This document shows, piece after piece, positions 38,861-52,435 of a stretch of 64,000 nucleotides of DNA. The notes below the pieces were generated by a model, which saw only the letters and a program-made list of their open reading frames with translations, made no database searches and had not been told where the DNA came from. Source of the DNA: Verrucomicrobiota bacterium (lineage in GTDB: Bacteria; Verrucomicrobiota; Verrucomicrobiia; Limisphaerales; J093). The translations under genes and the position numbers were made by a program. The stretch covers positions 14,087 through 78,086 of the forward strand of contig JAKLFY010000005.1 in assembly GCA_022710935.1 (NCBI GenBank), in the 5' to 3' direction. How positions within the stretch are numbered: position 1 is the stretch's first letter; each line of letters opens with the position of its first letter.

Positions 38861-39376
38861 TTATGAAGCTGAATTCGTCGAAGCGCGACACGACGACTTC
38901 GCCAGGCTGTGAGTGGTTTCGTTTCGGGGCTGTCGTGGGTGCGCTTCTATTAGCCGAAGCCTGCTTTGCTCCGCGAGCGCGCGCATAATTCTTGATACAC
39001 ACCAGTCAGGGCGCTTTGCGAGGTCGTGCTGCCAAATTCGTAGAACGCGCCAGCCTTTCTTGCGCAGAGCGCGGTTTACGTGGAGGTCACGAGTCCTGTT
39101 TGCGGACAGCTTCCGCCTCCAAAAGGCGCGATTGCTCACCGGAGTGCTGCAATGTATCGGGCAGCCGTGCCAAAAGCAGCCGTCCACGAAAACGGCCAGG
39201 CGTGACGCTCGAAAGACAAAATCCGGACTTCCGAACACGGTCTGGTTCCGCCTCCATCCCACGATCCCCCGACTCCGCATCAAGGTGCGCAGTCTCTGTT
39301 CTGTGGCACGGTTTCCCTTCGATCGAATTCGGGACATTATTTCGGATCGAAACCTAGCTGAAAAAACATCTGCCAT
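38861..39376 (-). CDS. vsr: very short patch repair endonuclease
   Basis: RSKGNRATEQRLR...PDFVF...AVFVDGCFWHGC...WRVLRIWQHDL. The last 35 aa or so may be read-through. Confidence 0.9.
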   Translation of the reverse strand: MADVFSARFRSEIMSRIRSKGNRATEQRLRTLMRSRGIVGWRRNQTVFGSPDFVFRASRLAVFVDGCFWHGCPIHCSTPVSNRAFWRRKLSANRTRDLHVNRALRKKGWRVLRIWQHDLAKRPDWCVSRIMRALAEQSRLRLIEAHPRQPRNETTHSLAKSSCRASTNSAS

Positions 39377-39417
39377 GAATGCGGTCCGACAAGCCTAGAC
39401 TCCAGTTGGGCGGGACT

Positions 39418-40488
39418 TCAGCGCCGTCGATGAACACCATTCGCGCCTTTCCTGCGGACAGCGTGTGCGGCGAGGGCACGCCTCACTTCCACCGCCTGCC
39501 GACGCACAAGTTCGGGAGGCAGTGCGTTGCCGATCATCAAGGCTACCCCCTGCTTTCCGGCAGTGAGGTCAAATTTGTATCTTCGCGGAAACGTCTGAAT
39601 CAGCGCCGCTTCGCGCATGGTGATATTCCGGTTCTCCACCGGATGGAGGAATCGGCCCTTTGACGGGTTGAAACATCCACCGGTGATTGTCGGGGCAACA
39701 TCATCCCAGGCCATGCGACCATAGATGTCCTTGAAACCGTCGCAGCGTCGATGACACTCAAGTTGCATGCTCGCGGGCAGATCGCGGCGGCTGCCTCCGT
39801 CCTTGGGGATTCGTGCAATCTTGCGGCGAACTTCCATGCTGCGCTGTTCAGGCAGATCGTGCAAAGGGTCGCCACTTTTTCCGGCTGGCGGCAGGTTTCC
39901 TATGGCTTGTCGGACGGTGCGATGTGTTCGAGCCGGTCGCGGGAAAGAAACCTCCAAGGTGAGTCCGGCAATCAGCACAAGTCGCCGCCGGCGTTGAGGG
40001 ACGCCGAAATCCTGCACATCCACAATCTCCCACTGCACTCTGTAACCCATTGACTCCAACGCGGTGGTGAATTCTCGGAACACCTTCTTCTCCCCGAGTC
40101 GCGGGACATTCTCCATCATGACTGCCTTTGGCCGCATCTCCTGCACCAGCCTCAGCATTTCTTTGACGAGGTTGTTCCGCGGGTCGCGATTTCGAGTCGC
40201 GCCATTGCGTGTCCGCAATGTCGAAAACCCCTGGCAGGGCGGACAGCCGACCAGCAGATCGAGTTCTCCCCGTTTGATCGTCAGTTCGCGCATCCACTTT
40301 CGCCCCTTGATGTCCCGGATGTCGTTCTGCGACAACTTCGTCCCGGGGTGGTTCAGTGCGTAGGTTTTTCCCGCCAAGGGATCAATTTCCACGGCACCAA
40401 TCACCTTGAACCCCGCGCGACACAGCCCTTCGGTTACCCCGCCGCAACCCGCAAACAAATCAATCGCTGTTGGTCGTCTTCGCTCCAT
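39418..40488 (-). CDS. dcm: DNA (cytosine-5)-methyltransferase
   Basis: Motif I DLFAGCGG, motif IV GCPPCQGFS, motif VI MENVPRL, motif VIII QRRRRLVLIA and motif X GNALPPEL. ATG 40488 lies 4 nt after the upstream stop. Confidence 0.95.
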   Translation of the reverse strand: MERRRPTAIDLFAGCGGVTEGLCRAGFKVIGAVEIDPLAGKTYALNHPGTKLSQNDIRDIKGRKWMRELTIKRGELDLLVGCPPCQGFSTLRTRNGATRNRDPRNNLVKEMLRLVQEMRPKAVMMENVPRLGEKKVFREFTTALESMGYRVQWEIVDVQDFGVPQRRRRLVLIAGLTLEVSFPRPARTHRTVRQAIGNLPPAGKSGDPLHDLPEQRSMEVRRKIARIPKDGGSRRDLPASMQLECHRRCDGFKDIYGRMAWDDVAPTITGGCFNPSKGRFLHPVENRNITMREAALIQTFPRRYKFDLTAGKQGVALMIGNALPPELVRRQAVEVRRALAAHAVRRKGANGVHRRR

Positions 40489-40492
40489 GCCG

Positions 40493-42556
40493 TCAAACCT
40501 CCCCGTCTCTGTATATGTCCACCGAAGTCTCAAGACATGGGCGCAGATCGAAATCATTCATGCCCAGTCCGGAGCGGGGCCGATCGATCCGCTGGTAAAT
40601 GTCGAAGCCCCGGCCAATCTTCACGATCCATCCGTTGTCCAAATGAATCTTCCGATCGTGAAGGCGTGAATCGAAAGTAAACTCAAACGCGATTGAATGC
40701 TGTTTGAGATCATCCACCAGGGCATCCAGCTTCTCGGACACCTCCACCTCCTGTGATTGGTCGTCGGCTCCGGTTACCAACCGAATCCTCTCGGCATCAC
40801 CCGTTTTCACCACCAGCTCGCAGAATCGTGTAAAATTGGCAATTTGGTGCGGCAGGCGGATATACGGATCCTCTATTCGGATCACTTTCGCCCCGGCGAG
40901 ATACGGTCCGAGCATCTTTTCGTAGCTGTAACCGGTATCCCCGTAGTGAATCGTAAAGTGCTTCTCCTTCAGTGAGGGGCGAGTCGCTTCTGCGGCGTCT
41001 GACGCGGCCACAGCCTGCGGCTCCACTGCCCTCGGCGCACTCGCACTTGGCGCGGTCTGCTTGTCCGCAGAGGGCAGCGGTTCCTGAGCTGCCACGCCGC
41101 CAATCCCCTTCGATTCCTGACAATGCACCGCCTGCTCCTGACCGTCTGCCTTGAAGAACGAGAATTGGAGTGCGGCAAACTCATCGTCCGGTTTTCGCTT
41201 GTTCAACTGCTCTTTCACGCGTCGACGTCCTTCCAAGGCATACTCCAGATACTCATTGAATTCCTGGTCGGAAGGTTCGCCGTGTGGGTGCAACAACTTC
41301 AAGAACCCCGCCACCGTCTTGATGACGGCAGTCTCATCGCGGCCGCGCACGGCGGCGCCCAGCCGTGCCTTCCCCTTCACGAATGCGTAGCGGTTTGTCT
41401 GCTTTGCCAGGTGGTGCAGGGCTTCCGCCAGATAATCCGTGATGAACCCGTAACTCGCAGTCAACAAATCGCTGCTATTCGGCGGAATCTCCCAGCCCGG
41501 CAGGTAGGTGTGAAACCGATGCAACACCGCCAGGTCAAAGGCTTCCGGCAGCGGTTTGAAAAGATCATGGTCCGGCGAGCGCACGAGGGCCTCAATCGAG
41601 TCATCAATGTTTCCAATGAAGGCGAGGCTGGCGTTGGCGATGATTTCCGCCGGGCCGCGGCTGAATCGTCCGTTTGCCATGTAATCCTTCATGATCTGAA
41701 TCGTGTCCCGATCCTTTACCCGGATGCCGGCGACCTCGTCGAAAGCCACCACATCCCAAAACCCGATGATCCCCACGCGGCGACGCTGGTTATTGTAGAA
41801 CAGGACGGAGGTGCTCGCCTGTCCGCCGCTGACCAGGGTCACATACGGCGAGAATTCACTGAATACGTAGGACTTGCCGGTGCCGCGCGGCCCCAATTCA
41901 ATGAAGTTGTAGTTCGCCTCGACAAAGGGGATCAGCCGGGTCAGGAAGTGCAGTTTGAGCCGTTTGGTCAGCTTGGTTGGCTCCAGCCCGACTGAACGCA
42001 GCAGCACATCCATCCAGGCGTCCCGACTGAACTGCTGCGCACCCTCGCAATAACGGGTGAAGTCGAATCTTGAGAGCTGCACGGGCCGGAGATCCTCAAC
42101 GTAGAAAGCGTAATCGTCATCCTCCACATCGTTGTAACCCAGCGTCACCTCCGCCCAAATGCCACCCTCCAGCAGGCGGTCGTTTTCCCGGTAGAACTTC
42201 TCGTTGATCGCAATGCGGCGCGAGTTGAAGTTCTCCATCGCCGCCCAGTGTCGTTTCTCCCGCTCCACATAGGAAACATGGATCTTGTCGATGAATTTGT
42301 GGCTGCCCTTCTGTTGCACCAGTGATTGTGCCCGGTTTGACTCGTCCGGGCGCACGTAGTTCTGCTGGATCGTCTCCAGCACGGCTGCGATGCCCGCCTG
42401 AATCTCGTGCGGATCATCTGTTGCACAGAATTTCGCGAGCAGGAATTCCAGCACAAAGGAGGGCACGTTTGTGCCCTTCTTGATCTGGTGCAGCAGATCT
42501 TTGCGCACGACGCACCCGGAAAATGTCCGGTTCAACTGTTGGTCGAGGTCATCCAT
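40493..42556 (-). CDS. BrxL-like AAA+ ATPase with a C-terminal MIT_C (MITD1-type phospholipase-D-like) domain in place of the Lon protease domain
   Basis: The N-terminal 460 aa or so are BrxL/TIGR02688-like (FSGCVVRKDLLHQIKKGTNVPSFVLEFLLAKF, Walker A GPRGTGKSY, Walker B VVAFDEV). An Ala/Pro-rich linker follows. The C-terminus carries EDPYIRLPHQIANFTRFCEL, LHDRKIHLDNGWIVKIGRGFDIY and DFDLRPCLETSVDIY. These match my memory of the human MITD1 C-terminal domain (DPYIR..[46 protein letters not shown]). Confidence 0.8.
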   Translation of the reverse strand: MDDLDQQLNRTFSGCVVRKDLLHQIKKGTNVPSFVLEFLLAKFCATDDPHEIQAGIAAVLETIQQNYVRPDESNRAQSLVQQKGSHKFIDKIHVSYVEREKRHWAAMENFNSRRIAINEKFYRENDRLLEGGIWAEVTLGYNDVEDDDYAFYVEDLRPVQLSRFDFTRYCEGAQQFSRDAWMDVLLRSVGLEPTKLTKRLKLHFLTRLIPFVEANYNFIELGPRGTGKSYVFSEFSPYVTLVSGGQASTSVLFYNNQRRRVGIIGFWDVVAFDEVAGIRVKDRDTIQIMKDYMANGRFSRGPAEIIANASLAFIGNIDDSIEALVRSPDHDLFKPLPEAFDLAVLHRFHTYLPGWEIPPNSSDLLTASYGFITDYLAEALHHLAKQTNRYAFVKGKARLGAAVRGRDETAVIKTVAGFLKLLHPHGEPSDQEFNEYLEYALEGRRRVKEQLNKRKPDDEFAALQFSFFKADGQEQAVHCQESKGIGGVAAQEPLPSADKQTAPSASAPRAVEPQAVAASDAAEATRPSLKEKHFTIHYGDTGYSYEKMLGPYLAGAKVIRIEDPYIRLPHQIANFTRFCELVVKTGDAERIRLVTGADDQSQEVEVSEKLDALVDDLKQHSIAFEFTFDSRLHDRKIHLDNGWIVKIGRGFDIYQRIDRPRSGLGMNDFDLRPCLETSVDIYRDGEV

Positions 42557-42557
42557 A

Positions 42558-45098
42558 TCAAGTCAGGATTTCCACTTTCAGTTTCAAAGGTAATCCGTAG
42601 GTCAATCCCGTCTCCGCATCCACGGCCCGGACTTCCATCGGTCCGACGAAATCTTCGACGATCCGCATCGGCACTTTCACAGCCTGCCCCGCCTTCAGCT
42701 TCACCACGCCGGTTGCAGGATCGACATGTGCACAGGACGCCGCTTCCCCGATGACGGTTTCCTGGGATCGGACCTTGGCCCTCGCTTCCAGCCGGAACGA
42801 CACCTCGCTGGCAAACAATTCTCCGCCGAATACGCTCACATCCAGCACCGGCCGTCGGGTCGTCACCGTGCCTTGCGCTTCCCCTCGGTAACGCAATTGC
42901 ACGTCCACCGCAGAGTGCGGCTCCGCTTCTTGATTACCCAGGTCAACTTCGATCAGAGGCGTTACCGCCTCCTGCAGGGAGAGGCCCTCGTGAAAATAGG
43001 GGTGCCGCTTGTTGAATGTCCCCAATGAGCGGGGAACCAGGTAGGACTCCACCTCCCCCTGAATGCCGACCTGTTCCTTGCCAAAGAGTATCGTCCCGGG
43101 AGTCGCCGATCCCCGCCCGAGCATGCACCGGTCTTTGACTTGGATCCAGTCCCCTTGGGGCTTCGCCACGGTGTCGCCCGCCGCCAGGCCGGGATGCAGG
43201 ACAAATCCGTGGTCGGTGGTGAAGATCACGTGGTGAAATCCCAGCTTCTTGAGTTTGCCGACAGCGGCGATCAGTTTCGCCAGAACATGAGGGAGGAACA
43301 GACAAACGTTGCTCGCATCCATCTCCCCCTGCTCGTCAATGTCGGTGGTCATGACCAGCAGCAGATCAACACCGCTCAGAGGCTCCGGCTTTTTCTTCCC
43401 CGCAGGCTTGAGCGCGATCAAATCGTCCAAGTCCAGCAGCTTCGTGCGGTCGCCGTAAAACTCCTGCGTGTAGGCAAAACGCTCAGCCGGCGTGCGAATC
43501 GGCTTGCCGTGCAGTGTCGGCACCAGCTTGTCCTCCGATATTTTCAGAACCAGATTTCCATCCGCTTTGGGTAACAGCGAAGCCATTCCGACGGCGGTAA
43601 TGGTCGGCAACTGTGCGCAGACCGACTTCAGCCGGCAGGTATAGCTGCCGCCCAGTTGCCGCTCCAGCGCCGTCCCCAATTCAAAGCGCAGGGCATCTAC
43701 AAAGAACAACGCGACTCTTTTGCCGCGCGTATCCAGGAGCGGGGCGATGCATTTGTCAAAGACCTGCGTGGCGCGCAGTCGTCCGCTGGTTGGCCACCCC
43801 TCCTTGGCCACACAATCAATGAATCGGCGCTGCAACTCCTCGGCGACCGCGAGAAACCGATGTCGTGCCGACTCGATCAATTCCTCGACGCCGTCGCTTT
43901 CTCCGTAGGTGTCGGCCACAGCTTTTTCCAGCTCGCGATGAGCTTGATCCAACCGGTAGGCCCGCCCTGTGTAGAAGGAAATCAGATCGTCCGCTGATTT
44001 TCCCGCCGCCGGCAAATCCCGTTCCAAATCTCCGGCGATCACGAGGAGTTCTCGGGCGCGTTCGGCGACCGTCCACAACATGCCGCGATCCGTATGCTTC
44101 ACCCATACGGACTCCTTCCGCTGGTCGGCAATCTCCGCTGCGGCTCCCCAATTGCCCGTCAAAAGTGCTTTTACGTATTGCCGAAGGAAACTGCGCTCCT
44201 CGAATGCGAAAGTGTCCCGCTTCCCCAGATCCGGCACTTCACGGGTCCTCGCTTCCAGCGTCAGCTCGGCAGCCACATTTCCGGCGCGGGCGATGTAGCT
44301 CGCATGATGCTTCTCCTGCCGCAGCGTATCACACACGCGGTTGACCAGCGCCTCGGCGCTCAGCTTTGCCCGGGGAATACCGGCCAAACTCTCCGGAAGT
44401 CCACCGGGCAGGTCGAGGGCGAATTCACTGAACAACACGAATCGCCAGAATTCCTCCGCCAGCGCATCCCACTTCTTCGTCTTGGTTTTGGGCGTGAAAC
44501 CAAGTTGCGAGCCGAACAGTTCTTTCGCTTCGGTTGCCCAGCCGTCGGTGGATTTCAGCTTCAGGAGCTGTTCAGCGTTGGGAACGAGAAGCGCAGTTAT
44601 GATTTCGGCCGCGGACTCGACGCCCAGCAGTGTTTGCAGTTGCGGCCAATGGTTTCCACCTTCGACCGCATCAATCATCGCCAGGTCCGGCGTGCCACTG
44701 CTGAACAACTCGCGAACCTTGTCCCGGTGGTCGGGTTTGGCCTTCTCACACAGACTTTGAAATGAATCGTCGTCGCTGCGCGGAAACCAGTCTGAGCCGG
44801 CGGCAATACCGCTGAACGGATCGTGACATCGTTCCTCGGGCGTCTTCGGCCTGTCCATCGGCACATACACGACCAATCGGCGCTCTGCTGCCTCGGCTTT
44901 CCCGAGCCCAGCCCAACATTCGACCGCGCGTTCGTGCGCTTCGATGAACGACTCCGAGGCATCCAGCACCATGCATTGCTCGTTCATCATGGTCAGCACC
45001 AGGTTGCGGTAGCGCCTGGCAGCATCATACACCACCAGCGCGCCCGCTTTGTCGGCCCGCTCGCGTAGTGTCGTTTGAATGAATTGCCCGATCTTCAT
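42558..45098 (-). CDS. pglZ: BREX-type alkaline-phosphatase-fold protein PglZ
   Basis: 846 aa. PglZ core RVALFFVDALRFELG, LPTITAVGMASLLP and VIFTTDHGFVL. N-terminal region typical of BREX type-1-like PglZ. Confidence 0.9.
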   Translation of the reverse strand: MKIGQFIQTTLRERADKAGALVVYDAARRYRNLVLTMMNEQCMVLDASESFIEAHERAVECWAGLGKAEAAERRLVVYVPMDRPKTPEERCHDPFSGIAAGSDWFPRSDDDSFQSLCEKAKPDHRDKVRELFSSGTPDLAMIDAVEGGNHWPQLQTLLGVESAAEIITALLVPNAEQLLKLKSTDGWATEAKELFGSQLGFTPKTKTKKWDALAEEFWRFVLFSEFALDLPGGLPESLAGIPRAKLSAEALVNRVCDTLRQEKHHASYIARAGNVAAELTLEARTREVPDLGKRDTFAFEERSFLRQYVKALLTGNWGAAAEIADQRKESVWVKHTDRGMLWTVAERARELLVIAGDLERDLPAAGKSADDLISFYTGRAYRLDQAHRELEKAVADTYGESDGVEELIESARHRFLAVAEELQRRFIDCVAKEGWPTSGRLRATQVFDKCIAPLLDTRGKRVALFFVDALRFELGTALERQLGGSYTCRLKSVCAQLPTITAVGMASLLPKADGNLVLKISEDKLVPTLHGKPIRTPAERFAYTQEFYGDRTKLLDLDDLIALKPAGKKKPEPLSGVDLLLVMTTDIDEQGEMDASNVCLFLPHVLAKLIAAVGKLKKLGFHHVIFTTDHGFVLHPGLAAGDTVAKPQGDWIQVKDRCMLGRGSATPGTILFGKEQVGIQGEVESYLVPRSLGTFNKRHPYFHEGLSLQEAVTPLIEVDLGNQEAEPHSAVDVQLRYRGEAQGTVTTRRPVLDVSVFGGELFASEVSFRLEARAKVRSQETVIGEAASCAHVDPATGVVKLKAGQAVKVPMRIVEDFVGPMEVRAVDAETGLTYGLPLKLKVEILT

Positions 45099-45104: not shown

Positions 45105-46961
45105 CTACCAACTGTCTGATCCGCCGCGCTTCTCATCGCGCGCCTGTTTTATACCGCAAAAACCCAGGAAGTCGCAATGCGAACACCGCGCCCCACCGCC
45201 CTGCCTTGCCTTCGGTCCTTCGCTGAATTTGCGGTTGCGAATGTCCGCGGCAGTGGTCGCCACCAGCTTCGTGGCCGCCGTCAGCGCGGCCGCATTCAGT
45301 GGCACGCTCAATTCCGCCTTCATCGCATCATCGGCGTCCAAGTAGCGGACCAGTCCCTGTTCGGGCTGATACTCCAATTCCTTTTTGGCCGCCACTGCAT
45401 ACAGCGCCACCTGTAACCGCATCTCTTCCTCGTCCAGCTTTTGGTGCTTGTCCGACTCCGGATCGCCGGACTTGAAGTCCACCAGCGTCACCTGCGGCGG
45501 ATTGTCCCGCCGGATGACGTCAATAGCTCCCGACACCAGCACGCCACCCTCGCCGTCTTCATACTCCACCAGCGTCTCAAAGCTCTTCTCCGGTTCAAAT
45601 GTCAACTCGCCCAGCTCGCCCGCATAACGCTCGATGTAATTCGCCACCACCTCCAACCCCTTTGCCCGCATGTTGTCCGCCGGATTGCCTGTCGTGTAGC
45701 GCAGGTAAAACAATCCGTGGTCAATCAACCCCTGGATTTCCCGCTCCAACGCCGGGCGATTCGTTGCCAGCGCCGCCCACTTCTTGGGATCCGAATGCAC
45801 GGCACGCATCAGGTTATGCACCCCGCGGCCGTAACCGAATGCCTGGTCGATGGTGGGCGCAAACCCGAGCACTTTTCTGAGATAGAAATCGTGCGGGCAT
45901 TCCAGATAGTAACGGAGGTCCGAGAAGGACGTGGCCAGCCGCACGTCCCGCAGATGCTCCTTGGGGGCATACTTCAGTTCGTTCAGCAGTTGTTGTGAGT
46001 CGTCGGTCACCGTTCCGCCGCTTTCGCTGACCATCGGGCGGAGTTCCTTGATGAAACTCGATGTCCGTTTTCCGCAGTGGCTGATGAACAGAAACCGCTC
46101 GGCGCGGGTCAGCGCCACATACATGAGCCGCCGCTCGCCGTCCCGGGTTTCATTGTCGGCCAGCCCTTCCACATCAATCTCCTCGACGATGCGTCCCTCC
46201 AGCGGCAGGTCCGGCTTCCGCCGGGCCATGCTGTTCGGAAAGCTGTTGGCGTTCACGGCGGCGAGGAACACCCCGGCGAACTCCAATCCCTTTGCACCGT
46301 GGATCGTGCTGATCGTGACTGCGTCCGGTTGGACCATCAGCGGCTGCTCCTCCGCCCGCGCCTCCTCGGAGCCGTATTGGCAAAGCCCGATGATCTGCCA
46401 GCGGTAGTCCCGGGTGCTTGTCCATCCGGGGGTTTCAATGCCCGTGATCAATCCGCTGAGCGCCCCAAGGTGGAACAATGCCGTCTGGCCGCGGCCCTCG
46501 CACGTGTCCCAGGCTTCCACCTCGGCCTCAGACAACAGCATGTGGAAGATCTTCTGGGGAAAGACGCGCCTCAGATCACCCGATTTGGTGAGAAACTCGC
46601 GCAACGAAGGGGTTCGGAAGGCCGCCGCTTTCTTTGGGTTGAGGGCCGTCCCGTGGTCAATCCGATCGGCAATCGCCCCCGCCGCCAGCAGCAGCCGGTC
46701 TTCGACCTCGCGGCTGAACGCCAGACCCGAGGCCCGTAACATCCGGGCCGATGCCCGCAGCACCTCCGTCGGATGAGGGGCACACCCCAACACTCCATCA
46801 ATCCGCTGGGGCAGACTTTTCGGGTTGTATTCCGACCCGAAGAATTCATCCATCCTTGCCGTCAGTGCCAGTGCCCCGACAAACAACAGAACCTCCGGCT
46901 GCGAGAACAAGTCCGGGCCGGCGCGCACCACGCAGGGGATGGCGCCTGTATCCTGATGCAC
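45105..46961 (-). CDS. UvrD-family helicase C-terminal half fused to a Cas4/AddB-like PD-(D/E)XK nuclease (no Walker A half)
   Basis: UvrD 2B-like IPCVVRAGPDLFSQPEVLLFVGALAL, motif V TISTIHGAKGLEFAGVFL and motif VI LMYVALTRAERFLFIS. Nuclease part: SFSDLRYYLECPHDFYLR, GAIDVI, LVDFKSG, QVALYAVA and Cys cluster CSHCDFLGFC. GTG start at 46961, first ATG at 46853. No ATP-binding motifs I to III are present. Confidence 0.75.
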   Translation of the reverse strand: MHQDTGAIPCVVRAGPDLFSQPEVLLFVGALALTARMDEFFGSEYNPKSLPQRIDGVLGCAPHPTEVLRASARMLRASGLAFSREVEDRLLLAAGAIADRIDHGTALNPKKAAAFRTPSLREFLTKSGDLRRVFPQKIFHMLLSEAEVEAWDTCEGRGQTALFHLGALSGLITGIETPGWTSTRDYRWQIIGLCQYGSEEARAEEQPLMVQPDAVTISTIHGAKGLEFAGVFLAAVNANSFPNSMARRKPDLPLEGRIVEEIDVEGLADNETRDGERRLMYVALTRAERFLFISHCGKRTSSFIKELRPMVSESGGTVTDDSQQLLNELKYAPKEHLRDVRLATSFSDLRYYLECPHDFYLRKVLGFAPTIDQAFGYGRGVHNLMRAVHSDPKKWAALATNRPALEREIQGLIDHGLFYLRYTTGNPADNMRAKGLEVVANYIERYAGELGELTFEPEKSFETLVEYEDGEGGVLVSGAIDVIRRDNPPQVTLVDFKSGDPESDKHQKLDEEEMRLQVALYAVAAKKELEYQPEQGLVRYLDADDAMKAELSVPLNAAALTAATKLVATTAADIRNRKFSEGPKARQGGGARCSHCDFLGFCGIKQARDEKRGGSDSW

Positions 46962-47514
46962 TCAGGCCCAGCCGCTGCATGACCCGGTCCAGGGAATGTC
47001 CCGTTCCCCGCGTCGTCCCGAACAGCCGCCGCGAAAACGCAATGGTGTCGATGGATTCGACGGTTCGGATGCGTGCTCGATGTCGCCTGCAGGTTGCTTC
47101 CAGGAATTTGGTGTCAAACCGGTGGCCGTTATGCGCCATGATCACCGAGTCGCCGACGAATTGGGAAAACTGCGACAGCACCTCAATGGGCCGTGGCGCG
47201 TCGCGCACGTCCCGGTCTGTGATGCCGGTGTAATCGGAAATGAACCGGGAGATCGGCTGACTTGGCCGGCAATAACTGAAGAAGGAGTCCCCCGCCACCA
47301 CCTCACCGTTCTGAAACCGCGTCGCGGCGATTTGAATGATTTCGCATCCGCCCGGATAAAGCCCCGTCGTTTCAAGGTCAAAGATGACGAATGAACCGCC
47401 TCCAACAACCGCGAACACATTGCCGCATTGCGGACAGCGGATGCGAGCCTCGGTCGCTGTCTCCGGGATTCTCAACGTAGCCCCGCATTGGCTGTTGCTG
47501 CACTTCGTGATCAT
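46846..47514 (-). CDS. zinc-ribbon plus DEDDh (DnaQ-like) 3'-5' exonuclease domain protein
   Basis: CSNSQCG...CPQCG zinc ribbon. Exo I FDLETTGL and Exo II MAHNGHRFD. The Exo III H-x4-D motif is not evident. The last 35 aa or so (RRHPLRGARRPGLVLAAGGSVVCRGTGTDGKDG) look out of frame and overlap the next ORF by 116 nt. Confidence 0.7.
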   Translation of the reverse strand: MITKCSNSQCGATLRIPETATEARIRCPQCGNVFAVVGGGSFVIFDLETTGLYPGGCEIIQIAATRFQNGEVVAGDSFFSYCRPSQPISRFISDYTGITDRDVRDAPRPIEVLSQFSQFVGDSVIMAHNGHRFDTKFLEATCRRHRARIRTVESIDTIAFSRRLFGTTRGTGHSLDRVMQRLGLSASGYRRHPLRGARRPGLVLAAGGSVVCRGTGTDGKDG

Positions 47515-47522: not shown

Positions 47523-47792
47523 CTAAATGTTGGTGCGCGGCGCTACGACACCTGGTTCATCCTGAACGGAGATTTTATAGAAGTGGCTGGGGCCGACGCC
47601 GGAGGTGAAGCGTTCAACGCTGAATCGATCGGGTTTCACATACCACGCTTGAGCGATCTTCCAGCGCGCTGCCACAATCGCTGATGCCAGGCCGCAGACC
47701 TTTGAGCCCGTTAGACCGATCTCCACGTTGTATCCGCTTTGGTGGTAGAGCTGAGAATACAGTTTCGTCAGGAAATCTATGTTCTCCTTCAA
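47523..47792 (-). CDS. hypothetical protein (89 aa)
   Basis: The TTG start overlaps the brxC stop (ATTTGAAGG). Noticeably AT-richer than its surroundings. No family recognised. It could be a frameshifted continuation of brxC. Confidence 0.35.
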   Translation of the reverse strand: MKENIDFLTKLYSQLYHQSGYNVEIGLTGSKVCGLASAIVAARWKIAQAWYVKPDRFSVERFTSGVGPSHFYKISVQDEPGVVAPRTNI

Positions 47793-49750
47793 ATCAGTCG
47801 ACGAGAGCGGGTAGCAATGCGCTCGTCCCGACGTTTGTCATAGACGGCGGCGTCCACCAACTCGATCACGTATTGGACCGGTTCGCGTTCGCCCAGCAGC
47901 GAAACCATCTGCGCCCCCACCGTTGTCTTCATGCCGGCGGTCACGCTCCGGGTGCCTTCCAGGCGCACTTCCGGCTGGTGCGTGAAGATCTGGGTGAGTT
48001 TCTCGTTTAGAACTTTCCGCAGGTCGCGGTCGAACACGTTGATCTTGCCCTTGGCGGCTTCCATCTCCGCCACGGCTTCGCTCATGAAGCGGAGCTTGCC
48101 GTCCACTTCGTTCAGGTGGACCGCCTTCTCCTCCATCAGACGCGTGACCGCAGCTTTCACCGATTCCATTTGGGAAGGAGCATCCACCCGGGGATGCAGC
48201 AGTGCGCCCACGTTCTCGCGGCTGATCGGGAAGTCGTCGAGCACCTGCAGCACGGCGATCACCTTGGCCACCTTCACTTCAAAGGAATCTCCGCTGAACG
48301 CCTTCTCAGCGCGGGCGACGCCATCAACGACATGTTTGAAGGAGCGTTGGATGTCGAGGCGCAGCGTGTCGTAGAACGTAATCGTGGTGGCCAACTCGCC
48401 GGCAGATGCGTCCGCCAGCAGTGCCTGACCGGAGCGCAAGCCGCTCTGATCCACCAGCACATCCTGGATGACCTTGATGGCGGACCGCAGGCCGATGCCG
48501 CCGCTCGTCTTCGCCAGGCGGCCAAGCAATTCCAGCAGGATGTCGAAGTGCTGCGGCAGGAACGGATAGAGCCGGCGGAATTCGTCTTTTTCCAAGGCCG
48601 ATTTGTAGTAGCGAGTGCCGGTTAGTTGCGTGTGATGTTTCAGCGCCGGGCCGTGCGTGTCGAAAAGGACAGCCAGGGTCTTGTCGCCCTCCGCCGACTT
48701 GGTCAGCAGCCGGTTGTAGCAGATCTCCCGGATGTCACTCGCCTCCAGGTCCACGCGAATGGGAAAGCGATCCGACAGCTTGAACAGTTTGGCGGAATTG
48801 AACCGGGCATTTGGATCGTCCTCGGTCAGGGTCTGTTGTGCCGTGGCGACCAGCCAGACCTTGCCGCCGCCGAGGTGTTTGACGTTCTTGGCCAGTCCGT
48901 CGAGGTTCAGGATAAGGTTGTCCCGTGCGGCGATGTATTGGCCGACCTCGTCGAGAATGAAGATGATGTTCGGTTTACCTGAGCGTCGGCGGACCAGTTC
49001 CAACATCTCCGCCACACGCTCGTTTTCCTTCTCGGCTTCGTCCACGCGCAACTTCTGGAATGCCGTCGCGTCGGGAAACACCTCGGGATAGAACTCGTGG
49101 GCCAACCGGGACGCGAATTGGTTGACGACCAGCGGCTGATTCTGAATCTGTTTCCACGTCTTGCCCTTGGACAACTCGACAATGCGTTTCTCGAATGCCT
49201 CCATTTTGCCATCCTTCTCCAGCATGAACTGGAGATAGGCGACCTTCTTGTCCTTCGAGTAGCCCGCCCACTGCATGACTGTCCAGTAGAGCACGGTGGA
49301 GATTTCCACCATCGTTGCGCCGGCGATCTGGGCGCTGGCCAGGTCCACCATGATGACCGTCGCCGGATAGCGTTTGGCCAAGGCACCGAGCTGTGCTTTG
49401 AGTGCCGCGGACTTTAGCTGTGCCTGCAGCCATTCGAGAAATGGCCGTTCGTCCACGGCACGAGAGGGATCAAGCGCAAATCCCAGATACTTCGTGAAGG
49501 AACTCTTGCCCGATCCGTAAAAGCCGGACACCCAGACACCGATTTCGTGTGCGCCGCCGCCAAGGCCGTCGTTCAGGTGCGACAAGAGGCGGTCGAAACT
49601 CCTGGCGATGTTGTCGGTGACGACATATTCGGTGACTTCCCGCTTGAGCTGGTCATTCTCGGTGCTGTCGAACGAAATGACCTTTTCGATTCGCCGGTCC
49701 AGACTGCGGCTGATTTCAAACAGGTCGCGTATTTTGCTCATGGGTGTCAT
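47789..49750 (-). CDS. brxC: BREX P-loop protein BrxC/PglY, N-terminal ATPase half only (653 aa)
   Basis: N-terminus KIRDLFEISRSLDRRIEKVISF....EYVVTDNIARSF and Walker A GVWVSGFYGSGKSSFTKYLG are typical of BrxC (DUF499). Walker B IIFILDEVGQY. From memory, canonical BrxC is about 1200 aa. Confidence 0.8.
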   Translation of the reverse strand: MTPMSKIRDLFEISRSLDRRIEKVISFDSTENDQLKREVTEYVVTDNIARSFDRLLSHLNDGLGGGAHEIGVWVSGFYGSGKSSFTKYLGFALDPSRAVDERPFLEWLQAQLKSAALKAQLGALAKRYPATVIMVDLASAQIAGATMVEISTVLYWTVMQWAGYSKDKKVAYLQFMLEKDGKMEAFEKRIVELSKGKTWKQIQNQPLVVNQFASRLAHEFYPEVFPDATAFQKLRVDEAEKENERVAEMLELVRRRSGKPNIIFILDEVGQYIAARDNLILNLDGLAKNVKHLGGGKVWLVATAQQTLTEDDPNARFNSAKLFKLSDRFPIRVDLEASDIREICYNRLLTKSAEGDKTLAVLFDTHGPALKHHTQLTGTRYYKSALEKDEFRRLYPFLPQHFDILLELLGRLAKTSGGIGLRSAIKVIQDVLVDQSGLRSGQALLADASAGELATTITFYDTLRLDIQRSFKHVVDGVARAEKAFSGDSFEVKVAKVIAVLQVLDDFPISRENVGALLHPRVDAPSQMESVKAAVTRLMEEKAVHLNEVDGKLRFMSEAVAEMEAAKGKINVFDRDLRKVLNEKLTQIFTHQPEVRLEGTRSVTAGMKTTVGAQMVSLLGEREPVQYVIELVDAAVYDKRRDERIATRSRRLI

Positions 49751-50331
49751 CCTCCAATGTGGACCGACCGGTAGTTCCCGTCGGGCGGATAGAAGCCGAG
49801 AAATCTCAGCGTGGTTTTTCCGTCACGGACTCCGGGATACAGAATCACGGTCGGGACGGTAAACTTGCCTTGGAGCTTTTGCTCCAGGACGCCGACGCGC
49901 AGATAAGGATGCAGGGCTTCCAGATCGGTGATGAAGAGCACGGTTTGCGCGCGGCCCCGGAGCGACTCCAGCCTGGTCTCGATCTTCCGCTTCAGAAGCT
50001 CATCGGCCGTCAGGGCGTCCTCCAGCGTCTTGTTGATCTCGGTCACGGACTCCCGGTCACACACAGTGTTCGCCGGGCTCGACAACCACACGTCGCGCAG
50101 TTCGTTGCTGCGGAAAATCTCCAGAACGGTGGCGGCCATCGACATCGTTTCCATGGTCCATCCCTGCTTGGCGAGCCGGGCCGCCCACTGTTTCTGCAGC
50201 CGTTTGATTTCGAGCATCTGCTCGGGCTTGAACACCAGGTAGTAAACGGGATCGTCGCCCGTGTTGGTCAGGCCGCGGCCCGCACGCAACCGCTGCCACA
50301 ATTCTTCAAAACTTTCACTGGGCGACGACAT
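49747..50331 (-). CDS. brxB: BREX protein BrxB (DUF1788-like)
   Basis: 194 aa from ATG 50331. DDPVYYLVFKPEQMLEIKR...ILYPGVRDGKTTLRFLGFYPPDGNYR is the typical DUF1788 pattern. The stop overlaps the brxC start (ATGA). Confidence 0.75.
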   Translation of the reverse strand: MSSPSESFEELWQRLRAGRGLTNTGDDPVYYLVFKPEQMLEIKRLQKQWAARLAKQGWTMETMSMAATVLEIFRSNELRDVWLSSPANTVCDRESVTEINKTLEDALTADELLKRKIETRLESLRGRAQTVLFITDLEALHPYLRVGVLEQKLQGKFTVPTVILYPGVRDGKTTLRFLGFYPPDGNYRSVHIGG

Positions 50332-51103
50332 CGAGAGATTCCTCCATTGTTTTGCACGCCCACGAAATCCGCACGATATCCCCGACCTGAACGATGAAAC
50401 GTCCCTGTCCGGAGAGTCGGCGCAGCTCATTTAGGACGTCGGACGACGAGAGCCCAAACAGCTCCCAATCCATGTGGGTCAAAATCATGGCGTCGTTCAC
50501 GCCGGAGAAATGCAGTTCGTGTGCGAGGTAGGTGATCGTGCTGGCCGAAGGGGTAAACGGGAGGATGGGACGACGATCGCCCTGCGGGTCGCCCAGCATT
50601 TTGAAATCGCACAACGCGGTCAGCAGATAGCGGCCGATTCGGATGTTGTTGCCTTCCGTCCACCGCGTCTTGATCCGTCCGTTGGCTTGTGCGGACTTGA
50701 TGAAGTTCACCGAATCTTCACGGAATAGGAACTGAGCCCCGGCAGAGTAGCGGGGCCAGTAAACCTCGCGGATGAAATCGTAGAGGATCAGATGCTCACG
50801 GGCGGTGTAGAGCAGAAACAGTTGATTTAGACGGTCGAGGTTGACGCCGCGCTGAACCAGAGGCCGAAGCCAGCATGCCGGACGGCCGCCTTCGCGCACA
50901 TATCGCGGCGCGAACCCGCGGCTGACAATGTCAGAAACACGCTGGGATGTGGCTTTCGGAATCAATCCTTGGCTGCGGACTTTTTCCGCCAACTGCTGCG
51001 AACTCATTCCCGGCTCCCAAACCTGCAGCAGGCGAAGCGTCTCCGGAAGCATTCCCTGGCCTTTGCACAAACCTGTGTTGTATTCACGTTCCAGGCCGCT
51101 CAT
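50315..51103 (-). CDS. brxA: BREX protein BrxA (DUF1819-like)
   Basis: Position directly upstream of brxB. The LFLLYTAREHLILYDFIREVYWPRY pattern is typical of DUF1819. The start overlaps the upstream stop. Confidence 0.7.
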   Translation of the reverse strand: MSGLEREYNTGLCKGQGMLPETLRLLQVWEPGMSSQQLAEKVRSQGLIPKATSQRVSDIVSRGFAPRYVREGGRPACWLRPLVQRGVNLDRLNQLFLLYTAREHLILYDFIREVYWPRYSAGAQFLFREDSVNFIKSAQANGRIKTRWTEGNNIRIGRYLLTALCDFKMLGDPQGDRRPILPFTPSASTITYLAHELHFSGVNDAMILTHMDWELFGLSSSDVLNELRRLSGQGRFIVQVGDIVRISWACKTMEESLDVVAQ

Positions 51104-51594
51104 GCAAAATAAGGGAAGACCCGTGTGCCCGAGCGGAAGCCGGCTGCGTAGGTCGCCGCCAAACGCGCCATGCCGCCCTGCGTGTCCGTTTCCTTTAACG
51201 GGCCGATGTGGATCGGGCCGGTGCCAGGCATCGGTTTTGCTTCTGCCGCCACAGCGTCAAGCAACTGCAAAGCAGCATCCCACGTGCACATCCTCTGGAG
51301 TTCTGGGATTCCCAGCCTGGAAAGACCGACTCGCACTTTCGCCTCACTCTCACGGGGGAGACGGAACAGGTGGGCGACGCGCCCTTTGCCTATTCGCTCG
51401 TCGTGCGCGCGACACGCGGCCTCCGAGGCGGCGTTTACTGCCGCCCAAGCCGCCGTCTTCGGGTAAACCAACTCCAGATACCTGAAGCCAACGGCATTGA
51501 GGAACGCGGTCTCCCACCAACCGGCCGCCGTTTTCTCGCCGAGGTGCGCGACCGCGATTCGGAGGGCGCAGGCCATGGTGTCGTGCCTTTGCAT
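51100..51594 (-). CDS. hypothetical protein, possibly BrxE-like
   Basis: 164 aa, first gene of the operon, ATGA-coupled to brxA. The motifs HLGEKTAAGWWETAF and VAHLFRLPRESE resemble my recollection of BrxE-family proteins. Not verifiable here. Confidence 0.45.
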   Translation of the reverse strand: MQRHDTMACALRIAVAHLGEKTAAGWWETAFLNAVGFRYLELVYPKTAAWAAVNAASEAACRAHDERIGKGRVAHLFRLPRESEAKVRVGLSRLGIPELQRMCTWDAALQLLDAVAAEAKPMPGTGPIHIGPLKETDTQGGMARLAATYAAGFRSGTRVFPYFA

Positions 51595-51597
51595 CGT

Positions 51598-52100
51598 CTA
51601 TTGCTGCTTCAGGAATGTCCCGAGCTCGGCGTCCTGGCTGGTCGTCGAAGCGCTCGTGGGATACAGCACAGTTGTCTGGATTCCCCGACCCGAGCCGCGC
51701 CGCCGCACATGCTCCAGGCAAAGACGATGCAGCTCAGGCTCTTGCCAGACCCCGTGCCGCTCGTGAGCACGTATGATTTCTGCTCCTTGGCCTTGCGGAT
51801 GCCGTCGGTCTGGTGCGCATGAAGCAGCAGTTGCTTGCCGGTAAGGTCGGATTGCGTCTTGTCCAGGCGGAAGACCTTGGCGCATTCGGGGTGGAGGGTT
51901 CCGTCTGTAACGAGGTCGTCGATGGTGCCGCCGGGTTGGAAGGTCGGATTGAGTTGAAGGAGGGGCTCGGGCCAGAACGCACCGGCTTCGAGCTCTGCCT
52001 CCACTTTGGCCAGGACCGCTGGGTCGGCGATCTTGATGAAGCTGCGCGTGTAGCGCGCGTAGTCGGTGACCAACCTCTGCCGCAGATCAAAGGCGTTCAT
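51598..52100 (-). pseudogene. 5' stump of a large DEAD/DEAH-box (YprA/DUF1998-type) helicase gene
   Basis: MNAFDLRQRLVTDYARYTRSFIKIADP...FWPEPLLQLNPTF...LLLHAHQTDGI...YVLTSGTGSGKSLSCIV. A frameshift near 51720 continues as LEHVRRRGSGRGIQTTVLYPTSASTTSQDAELGTFLKQQ (compare conserved LYPMNALANSQ). A stop at 51598 lies 3 nt before the first BREX-like gene. Confidence 0.7.
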
Positions 52101-52435
52101 GCCAGCGTTCTTGCACTGCAGTCCCTGCTTTTGTCCCAATCAGGAATCCCACTTGTGCCAGCAAACCCTGATTGTGACGGCGAGCCTACGCGGCCTTTTC
52201 CACGGAAACCAGAACAAATCCAGGTGCAGCCGGTCACGGTGAGGCATTGGCTGGACAGGGCCTCGCCGAGCGTCAGGTACGGCGCGGGGCCCGCATCCGG
52301 GCCGAGCAAGGGGAAGACGACGATGTTGCGGTGTCTCTGGGCCGGCCATTTGGATGATGGTCGGCGGTTGATGGTTGACGGACCGGGCTTTGGCCGTGGA
52401 CGGCGAAGAAGCGGTCCCGACCCCGGCCCCCGGCC

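What the first reader, a model, noticed from the sequence alone, without database searches (positions are those of the whole stretch)
38861..52139. BREX-like defence operon with no PglX: different nucleases and a C5-MTase in its place
Eleven co-directional minus-strand ORFs (51594 down to 38861) are packed with overlaps or gaps of 41 nt or less. They contain BREX parts in type-1 order: BrxE-like?, BrxA, BrxB, BrxC N-half, PglZ and a BrxL-like ATPase. I found no PglX-type N6-adenine methyltransferase and no BrxP-type PAPS reductase. As I recall the six subtypes defined by Goldfarb et al. 2015, every one carries one or the other. The pglX slot holds an 89-aa ORF, a zinc-ribbon DEDDh exonuclease and a headless UvrD/PD-(D/E)XK nuclease. 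The operon ends with dcm-vsr. This is either a new BREX-derived architecture (cytosine-methylation marking plus a nuclease effector) or a recently scrambled locus. The intact frames and start/stop coupling argue that at least part of it is maintained.
Basis: partly seen in the sequence, partly recalled or inferred. Interest (0 to 1): 0.9.

Follow-up and report, generated by a model that had tools for sequence, protein, structure and literature searches.

The report
Decayed BREX defence locus, PglX deleted
This is an ordinary type-1 BREX phage-defence operon, interleaved with a cytosine-methylase/helicase-nuclease/Vsr cassette, that recently lost its PglX methyltransferase and parts of three other genes by deletion; it is not a new PglX-free kind of BREX.

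Summary
But four ORFs in the "pglX slot" are gene fragments. BrxC stops at about residue 646 of roughly 1,200. The 89-aa ORF is the last ~85 codons of a ~1,250-aa CARF/kinase/AAA gene. The DEDDh exonuclease is cut just after its motif-III His. The "headless" UvrD starts at about residue 450 of ~1,060.

A relative 95% identical in DNA still has more of UvrD upstream of the breakpoint. Relatives at 59-71% PglZ identity carry a full PglX upstream of PglZ, with Exo-UvrD/PD-(D/E)XK-PglZ-BrxL-Dcm-Vsr in two of the four. Of 79 more distant loci, 73 show PglX upstream of PglZ; the other six have too little upstream sequence to judge.

The UvrD/PD-(D/E)XK gene belongs to an autonomous Dcm-UvrD/Cas4-like-Vsr cassette. 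I found it with both partners in 41 of 52 loci across many phyla, mostly without BREX, and it was described computationally in 2017.

The rearranged segment is 99.8-100% identical in four independent assemblies, so it is real and established in one Limisphaerales-like lineage. Verdict: a recently degraded composite defence island. Low interest.

The parts
51612..52139 (-). Remnant of a DruE-like (COG1205/YprA-type) defence helicase. Only the N-terminal ~135 residues, up to the Walker A motif GTGSGKS, are kept, followed by unrelated residues and a stop.
   Evidence: PADLOC DruE models of 1,460-2,055 aa match residues 15-136 only (best E 1.6e-10). There was no Pfam or NCBIfam hit.
51100..51594 (-). 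brxE-family gene, intact. It is the first gene of the BREX operon.
   Evidence: NCBIfam BrxE_fam, 124.5 bits against a cutoff of 40. A homologue lies upstream of brxA in the relatives whose locus reaches that far.
50315..51103 (-). brxA, intact.
   Evidence: PADLOC BrxA PDLC02445, 6.4e-83, positions 4-261/262; Pfam PF08849.
49747..50430 (-). brxB, intact. The likely true start is Met34, at about 50331.
   Evidence: PADLOC BrxB PDLC02465, 3.2e-65, protein residues 34-227 against model positions 1-190/190.
47789..49750 (-). brxC truncated to its N-terminal half, which holds the AAA+ ATPase with Walker A and B. Homology ends at residue ~646, followed by 7 foreign codons and a stop.
   Evidence: PADLOC BrxC positions 4-642/1212. 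NCBIfam BREX_BrxC positions 1-615/1173. tblastn with the L007 BrxC reading frame (1,231 codons) covers its residues 1-667 only. DNA homology to L173 ends at 47814.
47807..47816 (.). Deletion joint 1: brxC codon ~646 joined, out of frame, to the last ~85 codons of a CARF/STK/AAA-type gene. The missing material is the BrxC C-terminal half, all of pglX, and about 1,170 codons of the cargo gene.
   Evidence: BrxC homology ends at 47816/47814, and CARF_STK_AAA homology starts at 47807.
47523..47792 (-). The 89-aa ORF. It is the 3' remnant of a ~1,250-aa CARF6/Ser-Thr-kinase/AAA (ORC-CDC6-like) defence gene. Its TTG "start" overlaps the brxC stop.
   Evidence: PADLOC PDLC01925, positions 1112-1186/1187, E 5e-20. 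It is 72% identical to residues 1147-1227 of the 1,253-aa gene that lies between PglX and PglZ in L172 (E 9e-40). The full-length homologue in L007 scores 1,160 bits.
46846..47514 (-). Zn-ribbon plus DEDDh (RNase_T) 3'-5' exonuclease gene, truncated just after the motif-III His. The last 30 codons are UvrD sequence read in the wrong frame.
   Evidence: Pfam RNase_T positions 1-149/164. Relatives read ...YRRHDARGDIQALADAV..., whereas the window reads YRRH|PLRGARRP. Homology to the L008 Exo covers residues 1-196/231.
46941..46942 (.). Deletion joint 2 (about 1.45 kb lost): the exonuclease 3' end, the intergenic spacer and about 440-460 codons of the UvrD helicase core (motifs I-IV).
   Evidence: L001 is 95.3% identical and gap-free from window 46941 down to 41830. 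Upstream of that point it carries further UvrD sequence, including the NFRST motif, where the window carries exonuclease sequence.
45105..46961 (-). C-terminal 57% of a UvrD (SF1) helicase fused to a Cas4-like PD-(D/E)XK nuclease, with the four Fe-S Cys. The helicase motor is missing. The GTG "start" lies inside the exonuclease tail.
   Evidence: Pfam UvrD_C positions 277-348/350 plus a full PDDEXK_1. It aligns to residues 461-1075 of L004 and 441-1055 of L008. The full-length proteins are 1,048-1,075 aa.
42558..45098 (-). pglZ, intact.
   Evidence: PADLOC PglZ PDLC02561, positions 1-836/840, 2.8e-254. All columns that are invariant across 25 homologues are present.
40493..42556 (-). brxL, intact. 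It is the variant with a C-terminal MIT_C/HKD (PLD-like) domain.
   Evidence: Pfam BrxL_N, BrxL_ATPase and MIT_C. PADLOC PDLC02508 positions 1-695/698. TIGR02688 scores above its cutoff. The BrxL-HKD variant is described in PMC12839542.
39418..40557 (-). dcm-type C5 cytosine methyltransferase, intact (the likely start is Met24, at about 40488). It is the M gene of the Dcm-UvrD/Cas4-like-Vsr cassette.
   Evidence: Pfam PF00145, 3.3e-60. Orthologues (E 1e-93 to 1e-173) lie next to the UvrD/PDDEXK gene in 44 of 52 loci.
38861..39376 (-). vsr (T:G mismatch endonuclease), intact. It is the V gene of the cassette.
   Evidence: TIGR00632, positions 1-119/119, 110 bits against a cutoff of 97.85. Pfam Vsr. 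It is next to the UvrD/PDDEXK gene in 43 of 52 loci.

Best explanation
The region is a horizontally acquired defence island in a Limisphaerales-type (Verrucomicrobiota) chromosome. It originally held two systems written into one another.

(1) A type-1 BREX operon: brxE-brxA-brxB-brxC-pglX-[cargo]-pglZ-brxL, with the HKD/MIT_C form of BrxL.

(2) A Dcm-UvrD/Cas4-like helicase-nuclease-Vsr cassette with an accessory Zn-ribbon DEDDh exonuclease. In this clade Exo-UvrD sits just upstream of pglZ, and dcm-vsr just downstream of brxL.

In the window's lineage, deletions have broken both systems:
- One deletion joined brxC codon ~646 to the last ~85 codons of a CARF/kinase/AAA cargo gene. My estimate is at least 9 kb lost. 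It removed the BrxC C-terminal half and all of pglX.
- A second deletion of about 1.45 kb joined the exonuclease, just after its motif-III His, out of frame to uvrD codon ~450. It removed the helicase motor.
- A DruE-like helicase upstream is also reduced to about 135 codons.

Shown by the data: the fragment identities, the breakpoints, the intact state in relatives, and the reproducibility of the rearrangement in independent assemblies.

Inferred:
- Canonical BREX (N6-adenine marking by PglX and PglX-dependent exclusion) no longer works here.
- The helicase-nuclease cannot translocate, and the exonuclease is probably dead.
- Dcm and Vsr probably still work as an orphan 5mC methylase with its T:G repair nuclease.
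- brxE, brxA, brxB, pglZ and brxL are intact but stranded, and are either awaiting decay or retain some unknown residual role.
For: Breakpoints:
- BrxC homology ends at 47814-47816, and CARF_STK_AAA C-terminal homology starts at 47807.
- Homology to L001 starts at 46941. L001 carries further UvrD sequence upstream of that point.
- The DEDDh motif III, HDARGD in relatives, is cut after the His.

Relatives that keep PglX:
- L087/L008 (66% PglZ identity): BrxC-PglX(1,651 aa)-456 aa-Exo-UvrD-PglZ-BrxL-Dcm-Vsr.
- L171 (71%): PglX-...-GmrSD-Exo-UvrD-PglZ-BrxL-Dcm-Vsr.
- L172 (68%): PglX-580 aa-CARF/STK/AAA(1,253 aa)-GmrSD-PglZ-BrxL-Dcm-UvrD.
- L007 (59%): BrxE-A-B-C-PglX-PglZ-BrxL-Dcm.

Among more distant loci, 73 of 79 have PglX upstream of PglZ, and the other six have at most 4.6 kb of upstream sequence. 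In 35 of the 73 there is at least 1 kb of cargo between PglX and PglZ.

Cassette autonomy: of 52 loci with a close UvrD/PDDEXK homologue, 44 have Dcm, 43 have Vsr, 41 have both, and only 6 have BREX. This context was described in PMC5704561.

No PglX, BrxC C-terminal or UvrD N-terminal remnant lies anywhere in the 64 kb.

The rearranged segment is 99.8-100% identical in four independent assemblies.

dN/dS of the UvrD remnant against L001 is 0.04, with no internal stops, which fits a recent deletion.

In tested type-1 systems, BrxA/B/C/PglZ plus PglX are needed for methylation and all genes are needed for restriction (PMC9122589).
Against: - Seven genes remain full-length and tightly coupled.
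- The truncated ORFs contain no secondary stops.
- The same arrangement is established in a population sampled in several metagenomes, so it is not strongly deleterious.
- A BrxC N-terminal domain (residues 1-551 in Acinetobacter) is enough in vitro to bind BrxB:PglZ (PMC13326643), so the stump could in principle still assemble.
- Only 64 kb of the genome was seen, so a pglX elsewhere cannot be excluded.
- No expression or methylome data are available.
Confidence: 0.87

Rival explanations
1. A genuinely new, maintained BREX-derived system. In this reading, C5 methylation by Dcm replaces PglX as the self mark, and the exonuclease and the UvrD-C/PD-(D/E)XK protein act as effectors together with BrxE/A/B, a short BrxC, PglZ and BrxL.
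For: - The ORFs are open and closely spaced.
- The arrangement is identical in four independent assemblies.
- The UvrD remnant has a low dN/dS.
- The BrxC N-terminal domain alone binds BrxB:PglZ in vitro.
- PglX or BrxC has also been disrupted independently in two close relatives that keep PglZ-BrxL or Exo-UvrD: L004 (PglX cut to 430 aa) and the Prado240 MAG (BrxC fused to a DUF262 domain about 44 residues beyond the window's breakpoint).
Against: - Each "new" ORF is a piece of a larger gene that is intact in relatives. Its start codon lies at or next to a deletion joint.
- The exonuclease has lost a catalytic Asp, and the UvrD part has lost helicase motifs I-IV.
- No other taxon shares this order. 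The breakpoints differ between the three decayed relatives.
- Every relative with enough sequence has PglX.
- The low dN/dS was measured against a relative whose UvrD ORF continues further upstream of the breakpoint, so it mostly reflects the time before the deletion.
Confidence: 0.05
2. An assembly chimera or mis-join in a metagenome-assembled contig produced the apparent truncations.
For: Both joints are abrupt. The source is probably a metagenome assembly, because its closest matches are MAGs.
Against: Four contigs from independent samples and assemblers (ENA ERZ795055, JGI 3300009771, ENA ERZ27257480, JGI 3300025715) span both joints at 99.8-100% identity.
Confidence: 0.01
3. A programmed (phase-variable) rearrangement, as known for pglX shufflons. 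In this reading the missing parts are stored nearby in another orientation.
For: PglX is a known target of programmed inversions (PMC9881135). Several proteobacterial relatives show split PglX ORFs or duplicated PglX C-terminal halves.
Against: - No PglX, BrxC C-terminal or UvrD N-terminal sequence lies on either strand of the 64-kb window.
- No long inverted or direct repeats flank the joints.
- I did not search the island for a recombinase. None of the ORFs that were scanned matched one.
Confidence: 0.02

Closest known systems
Type-1 BREX (brxA-brxB-brxC-pglX-pglZ-brxL), in the subfamily with an upstream brxE and a BrxL carrying a C-terminal HKD/MIT_C domain
   Same: BrxE, BrxA, BrxB, PglZ and BrxL are full-length members in the canonical order. 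73 of 79 loci around PglZ homologues show PglX upstream of PglZ, and those that reach far enough upstream show E-A-B-C-X-Z-L. The BrxL-HKD variant is described in PMC12839542.
   Different: Here BrxC is cut at about residue 646 and pglX is absent. The defining tripartite core (BrxC, PglX, PglZ) is therefore incomplete, and the system should be non-functional as BREX.
The Dcm-UvrD/Cas4-like-Vsr predicted defence/RM-like cassette (Hudaiberdiev et al. 2017, PMC5704561)
   Same: The window's Dcm, Vsr and UvrD-C/PD-(D/E)XK are orthologues of this cassette's three genes. The cassette was seen with both partners in 41 of 52 loci across many phyla.
   Different: In this clade the helicase-nuclease has moved upstream of pglZ, next to a Zn-ribbon DEDDh exonuclease. 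In the window it has lost its helicase motor. As far as I could find, the cassette has never been tested experimentally (one search found only the 2017 paper).
BREX islands with embedded cargo, such as the GmrSD-type BrxU (pEFER, PMC8565348) and the auxiliary nucleases catalogued in PMC12839542
   Same: The PglX-PglZ gap is a cargo site. In 35 of 73 relatives it holds 1-7.9 kb of extra genes, often GmrSD. Embedding of nucleases in BREX loci is described.
   Different: The cargo here is an SF1 helicase-Cas4 nuclease, a DEDDh exonuclease and a CARF/kinase/AAA gene. That survey's main text has no match for UvrD, Vsr, Dcm, Cas4, RecB, DnaQ or exonuclease. In the window the cargo is fragmentary.
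Type-4 BREX (BrxP PAPS reductase instead of a methyltransferase)
   Same: It is the only described BREX type without PglX.
   Different: There is no PAPS reductase, DUF4007 or cysteine desulfurase here. The core proteins match type-1-style models rather than type-4.

Membership tests
BREX type 1 | BrxA and BrxB present | tested here: met
   PADLOC 6.4e-83 and 3.2e-65, both covering nearly the whole model.
BREX type 1 | Full-length BrxC/PglY P-loop ATPase (about 1,200 aa) | tested here: not met
   Only model positions 4-642/1212 and 1-615/1173 are present. Homologues in relatives span about 1,200-1,240 codons.
BREX type 1 | PglX N6-adenine methyltransferase | tested here: not met
   No PglX model hit any ORF. 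tblastn with three PglX proteins against the 64-kb window gave a best E of 0.13.
BREX type 1 | PglZ alkaline-phosphatase-fold protein | tested here: met
   PDLC02561 positions 1-836/840, 2.8e-254. The invariant residues are kept. It scores below the NCBIfam subtype cutoffs.
BREX type 1 | BrxL Lon-like/MCM-type ATPase | tested here: met
   TIGR02688, 496.8 bits against a cutoff of 329.3. Pfam BrxL_N, BrxL_ATPase and MIT_C.
BREX type 4 | BrxP PAPS reductase replacing the methyltransferase | tested here: not met
   No such hit among the 12 ORFs in Pfam or PADLOC.
Dcm-UvrD/Cas4-like-Vsr cassette | C5 methyltransferase and Vsr endonuclease of the cassette's own families | tested here: met
   Both are full-length. 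Orthologues flank the UvrD/PDDEXK gene in 44 and 43 of 52 loci.
Dcm-UvrD/Cas4-like-Vsr cassette | SF1 UvrD helicase core (motifs I-IV, Walker A/B) | tested here: not met
   The window protein aligns only to residues 441/461 onward of the 1,055-1,075-aa proteins. There is no PF00580 hit.
Dcm-UvrD/Cas4-like-Vsr cassette | C-terminal Cas4-like PD-(D/E)XK nuclease with four Cys | tested here: met
   PDDEXK_1 positions 2-246/247, 1.7e-25. Cas4 hits. The Cys residues (ECPHDF ... CSHCDFLGFC) can be read in the translation.
DEDDh (DnaQ/RNase T) exonuclease | All three Exo motifs, including the motif-III H-x4-D | tested here: not met
   The alignment with four orthologues shows HDARGD replaced by H|PLRGAR at the deletion joint. 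The final Asp and about 35 C-terminal residues are lost.
Druantia (DruE helicase) | Full-length DruE (about 1,500-2,000 aa) with partner genes | tested here: not met
   Only residues 15-136 match the N-terminus of DruE models. No partner genes were seen.

The most novel reading that the evidence does not exclude
In the intact relatives (L087, L171, L170, L005, L004, L086), BREX and the Dcm-UvrD/Cas4-like-Vsr cassette plus the Zn-ribbon DEDDh exonuclease may be more than neighbours. The order Exo-UvrD-PglZ-BrxL-Dcm-Vsr, seen complete in L087, L170 and L171, has gaps of 1-76 nt in the two loci with gene calls. BrxL-Dcm-UvrD-Vsr also recurs in loci from at least four other phyla.

This could mean that the helicase-nuclease and exonuclease supply a DNA-degrading effector arm to BREX, or a second 5mC-based layer co-regulated with it. 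In that case the window's stump (BrxE/A/B, BrxC N-terminal domain, PglZ, BrxL-HKD, Dcm, Vsr) might keep a PglX-independent activity.

Nothing here excludes this reading, but nothing requires it. The cassette is autonomous in most genomes, and defence genes cluster for other reasons.
Probability: 0.12. Interest if true: 0.6.

Novelty: new member of a known kind. Interest (0 to 1): 0.2.

Why it matters
The main value is as a correction. A gene order that looks like a PglX-free BREX with "replacement" nucleases and a C5 methylase is a deletion product of two known modules. It should not be counted as a new defence architecture.

Three smaller points have some use:
- It documents recurrent, independent loss of the brxC/pglX part of BREX in one verrucomicrobial clade, with pglZ-brxL kept.
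- It adds an SF1-helicase/Cas4-nuclease, a DEDDh exonuclease and a CARF/kinase/AAA gene to the cargo seen in the pglX-pglZ slot.
- It shows that the still untested Dcm-UvrD/Cas4-like-Vsr cassette is widespread and repeatedly docks at the 3' end of brxL. That makes the cassette a reasonable candidate for an ordinary phage-defence assay.

Tried and rejected
- The promoter/terminator consensus scan over 38.3-52.7 kb gave fewer hits than shuffled sequence and said nothing about operon limits.
- There are no tRNA genes in the window to mark an integration site.
- No IS-like or long direct or inverted repeats lie at the joints. Only short chance-level matches were found.
- An exact look-up of the 653-aa BrxC stump returned nothing, although the protein search later showed it in the collection as P0121. 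The look-up with the 222-aa exonuclease worked instead.
- The first close-relative scan with PglZ alone gave a single locus. An alignment-based scan was needed.
- Goldfarb et al. 2015 is not in the held library. The statement that all BREX types have PglX or a PAPS-reductase module therefore rests on PMC12839542.
- One literature query failed on syntax.
- I did not run structure prediction. The sequence evidence was decisive.
- I considered the DruM-like best PADLOC hit of Dcm, together with the upstream DruE fragment, as a possible Druantia remnant. I rejected this because Dcm is clearly orthologous to the cassette methylases that lie next to UvrD.


Full report
**1. Observation**

The eleven co-directional minus-strand ORFs are present as described.

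Profile searches give the following identities:
- BrxE family: NCBIfam 124.5 bits against a cutoff of 40.
- BrxA and BrxB.
- BrxC, covering only positions 4-642 of a 1,212-position model and 1-615 of 1,173.
- An 89-aa ORF.
- A Zn-ribbon plus RNase_T/DEDDh exonuclease.
- A protein with only the last ~70 positions of UvrD_C plus a full PDDEXK_1 domain.
- Full-length PglZ.
- Full-length BrxL with an MIT_C domain.
- A C5 methyltransferase and Vsr.

No PglX or BrxP model matched any ORF. tblastn with three PglX proteins found nothing in the whole 64 kb.

The block has 57.5-62% G+C against about 64-66% in the flanks. It lies between ordinary chromosomal genes: large secreted Ig/beta-propeller proteins, a T2SSE ATPase, a GH38 enzyme and a symporter.

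**2. The "pglX slot" ORFs are gene fragments**

The 89-aa ORF matches positions 1112-1186 of a 1,187-position PADLOC model, CARF6--CARF_STK_AAA (E 5e-20). It is 72% identical to residues 1147-1227 of a 1,253-aa kinase/ORC-CDC6-like gene. In a relative (L172) that gene lies between PglX and PglZ.

BrxC homology ends at window 47814-47816, and the cargo-gene homology begins at 47807. The joint is therefore only a few bases wide and is out of frame. BrxC reads seven foreign codons and stops. The 89-aa ORF "starts" at a TTG that overlaps that stop.

The second joint is at about 46941. A Limisphaerales MAG contig (L001) is 95.3% identical, without gaps, from 46941 down to 41830. Upstream of that point it carries further UvrD sequence, whereas the window carries exonuclease sequence.

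Orthologous exonucleases read ...YRRHDARGDIQALADAV... The window reads YRRH|PLRGARRP... and continues as UvrD sequence in the wrong frame. The last catalytic Asp of the DEDDh motif and about 35 residues are therefore lost.

The "headless" protein aligns to residues 441/461 onward of proteins of 1,048-1,075 aa. It lacks helicase motifs I-IV but keeps the Cas4-like nuclease.

Upstream of brxE, ORF 51612-52139 matches only the first ~135 residues of DruE-type helicases of 1,460-2,055 aa. This is a further remnant.

**3. What relatives look like**

I collected 79 further loci around PglZ homologues from one genome per species and annotated them with the window's proteins and a PglX from a relative.
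- 73 have PglX upstream of PglZ.
- The six without a PglX hit have at most 4.6 kb of upstream sequence.
- Loci that reach far enough upstream show the order BrxE-BrxA-BrxB-BrxC (about 1,200-1,240 codons)-PglX-PglZ-BrxL.
- In 35 of the 73, between 1 and 7.9 kb of extra genes sit between PglX and PglZ, often a GmrSD-type enzyme.

The closest clade shows what the window looked like before the deletions:

| Locus | PglZ identity | Gene order |
|---|---|---|
| L087/L008 | 66% | BrxC-PglX(1,651 aa)-456 aa-Exo-UvrD/PDDEXK-PglZ-BrxL-Dcm-Vsr |
| L171 | 71% | PglX-440-306-GmrSD-Exo-UvrD-PglZ-BrxL-Dcm-68-Vsr |
| L172 | 68% | PglX-580-CARF/STK/AAA-GmrSD-PglZ-BrxL-Dcm-UvrD |
| L002/L003 | 73% | PglX-GmrSD-GmrSD_N-Exo-PglZ-BrxL-Dcm-UvrD-Vsr |
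| L007 | 59% | BrxE-A-B-C-PglX-PglZ-BrxL-Dcm, then a full CARF_STK_AAA gene |

That condition is met.

**4. The nuclease and dcm-vsr belong to a separate, known cassette**

I scanned for homologues of the full-length UvrD/PDDEXK protein and found 52 loci with close relatives. They come from Verrucomicrobiota, NC10, Proteobacteria, Planctomycetota, Bacillota, Chloroflexota, Bacteroidota, Actinomycetota, Nitrospirota and others.
- 44 have the Dcm orthologue within 3 kb, 43 have Vsr, and 41 have both. The usual order is Dcm-UvrD-Vsr on one strand.
- Only 6 are next to BREX, and 4 have the exonuclease.

Hudaiberdiev et al. 2017 (PMC5704561) already described the UvrD-Cas4 fusion in a Dcm plus Vsr context and predicted a defence role. 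I found no later paper on it.

So dcm-vsr is not a substitute marking module for BREX. It is two thirds of an autonomous, RM-like cassette whose third gene has been broken here.

When the cassette is next to BREX it sits directly after brxL (L096, L105, L107, L138, L002, L172). In the Limisphaerales-type clade, UvrD has moved in front of pglZ beside the exonuclease.

**5. Is the rearrangement real, and how old is it?**

The exact 222-aa exonuclease with its frameshifted tail occurs on contigs from four independent samples and assemblers. Those contigs are 99.8-100% identical to window 43945-49561 and span both joints. It is not an assembly artefact, and it is established in a lineage.

Against L001, the UvrD remnant has dN/dS 0.04 (dS 0.29) and PglZ has 0.10. 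There are no secondary stops. The deletions therefore look recent relative to that divergence.

Two close relatives carry different lesions in the same part of the operon:
- L004 keeps a full BrxC, but its PglX is cut to 430 aa (model positions 1-335 of 1,332).
- In the Prado240 MAG, BrxC is 93% identical to the window's. It continues about 44 residues past the window's breakpoint and then runs into a DUF262 domain.

Loss of the brxC/pglX portion is therefore recurrent and independent. That is the pattern of decay, not of a conserved new design.

**6. How it works now**

This section is inference.

In the type-1 systems that have been dissected, BrxA/B/C and PglZ plus PglX are needed for methylation, and all genes are needed for restriction (PMC9122589). 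The BrxC-PglX-PglZ triad is regarded as the core (PMC12839542). Without pglX, and with half a BrxC, canonical BREX should be off.

The UvrD remnant has no motor, and the exonuclease lacks a catalytic residue.

Dcm has motifs I, IV, VI, VIII and X readable, and Vsr is complete. They probably still methylate one cytosine motif and repair the resulting T:G mismatches.

BrxE, BrxA, BrxB, PglZ and BrxL-HKD are intact. A BrxC N-terminal domain can bind BrxB:PglZ in vitro (PMC13326643). A residual activity therefore cannot be excluded, but nothing supports one.

**7. Comparison and novelty**

The locus fails two defining tests for type-1 BREX (full BrxC, PglX). It fails one for the Dcm-UvrD/Cas4-Vsr cassette (helicase core). 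It is a degraded member of both.

Embedding of nucleases in BREX loci and the BrxL-HKD variant are both published. That survey's main text has no match for UvrD, Vsr, Dcm, Cas4, RecB, DnaQ or exonuclease. The recurrent docking of this cassette onto BREX is therefore a small new observation.

Overall the finding is ordinary: a recently scrambled composite defence island. I score interest at 0.2. The most novel reading not excluded is functional integration of BREX with the helicase-nuclease/exonuclease/5mC cassette in the intact relatives. I give it about 0.12 probability.

Noticed in passing
L024, L025, L027, L028, L031, L034, L065 and many other proteobacterial loci: PglX appears as two ORFs split at the same point (about residue 663/670 of the L002 protein). 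Some loci have a 1.8-kb gap (L025) or two copies of the C-terminal half (L065). PADLOC has separate half-length PglX models. This fits the programmed inversions and split-PglX designs reported in PMC9881135.
   Followed up: partly
L173 1-2134 (GCA_025457745.1, JALOTT010000461.1; the same MAG as L086): BrxC, 93% identical to the window's, runs about 44 residues past the window's breakpoint and then continues in frame into a DUF262/GmrSD_N domain. It is followed by a different C5 methyltransferase. This is an independent disruption of brxC in a close relative.
   Followed up: partly
L004 3658-4950: A 430-aa ORF is the N-terminal third of PglX (PADLOC positions 1-335/1332). It is followed by a 107-aa AAA_15/AAA_21/DUF3696 ORF, apparently a fragment, and an NsnC-like gene. 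This is another decayed BREX, with BrxC, Exo, UvrD, PglZ and BrxL intact.
   Followed up: partly
L096, L105, L107, L138, L002/L003, L172: The Dcm-UvrD/Cas4-like cassette sits directly after brxL on the same strand, in loci assigned to Desulfobacterota, Gammaproteobacteria, Bacillota, Actinomycetes and Verrucomicrobiota. Vsr follows in all but L172. The BrxL is of two types, with and without MIT_C. This docking is not mentioned in the 2026 BREX survey.
   Followed up: partly
L127 8353-13240: The UvrD/PDDEXK gene is in three pieces, with the middle piece (residues ~170-707) on the opposite strand. This looks like an internal inversion. An exonuclease homologue and two Vsr copies follow.
   Followed up: no
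L007, L089, L091, L102, L172: The large CARF6/Ser-Thr-kinase/AAA gene, whose 3' end survives as the window's 89-aa ORF, repeatedly lies next to the Dcm-UvrD-Vsr cassette or inside BREX loci. It may be a frequent co-traveller.
   Followed up: no
window 52415-52513 and 52352-52685: Short tandem heptamer arrays (CCGATCT x11; GGTTGAT x4; GTTGAAC x5) lie in the non-coding stretch just upstream of the DruE-like remnant, at the edge of the island. Their function is unknown.
   Followed up: no
window 45105-46941 against 42558-45098, compared with L001: Synonymous divergence from L001 is 0.29 in the UvrD remnant but 0.12-0.14 in PglZ and BrxL. The adjacent genes may have different histories, for example through recombination within the island.
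   Followed up: no
L005 1422-2063 and L086 2705-2923: A uracil-DNA-glycosylase-family gene lies directly upstream of the exonuclease in L005 (complete). In L086 only a match to its C-terminal ~45 residues was found. This is another variable neighbour of the Exo-UvrD pair.
   Followed up: no
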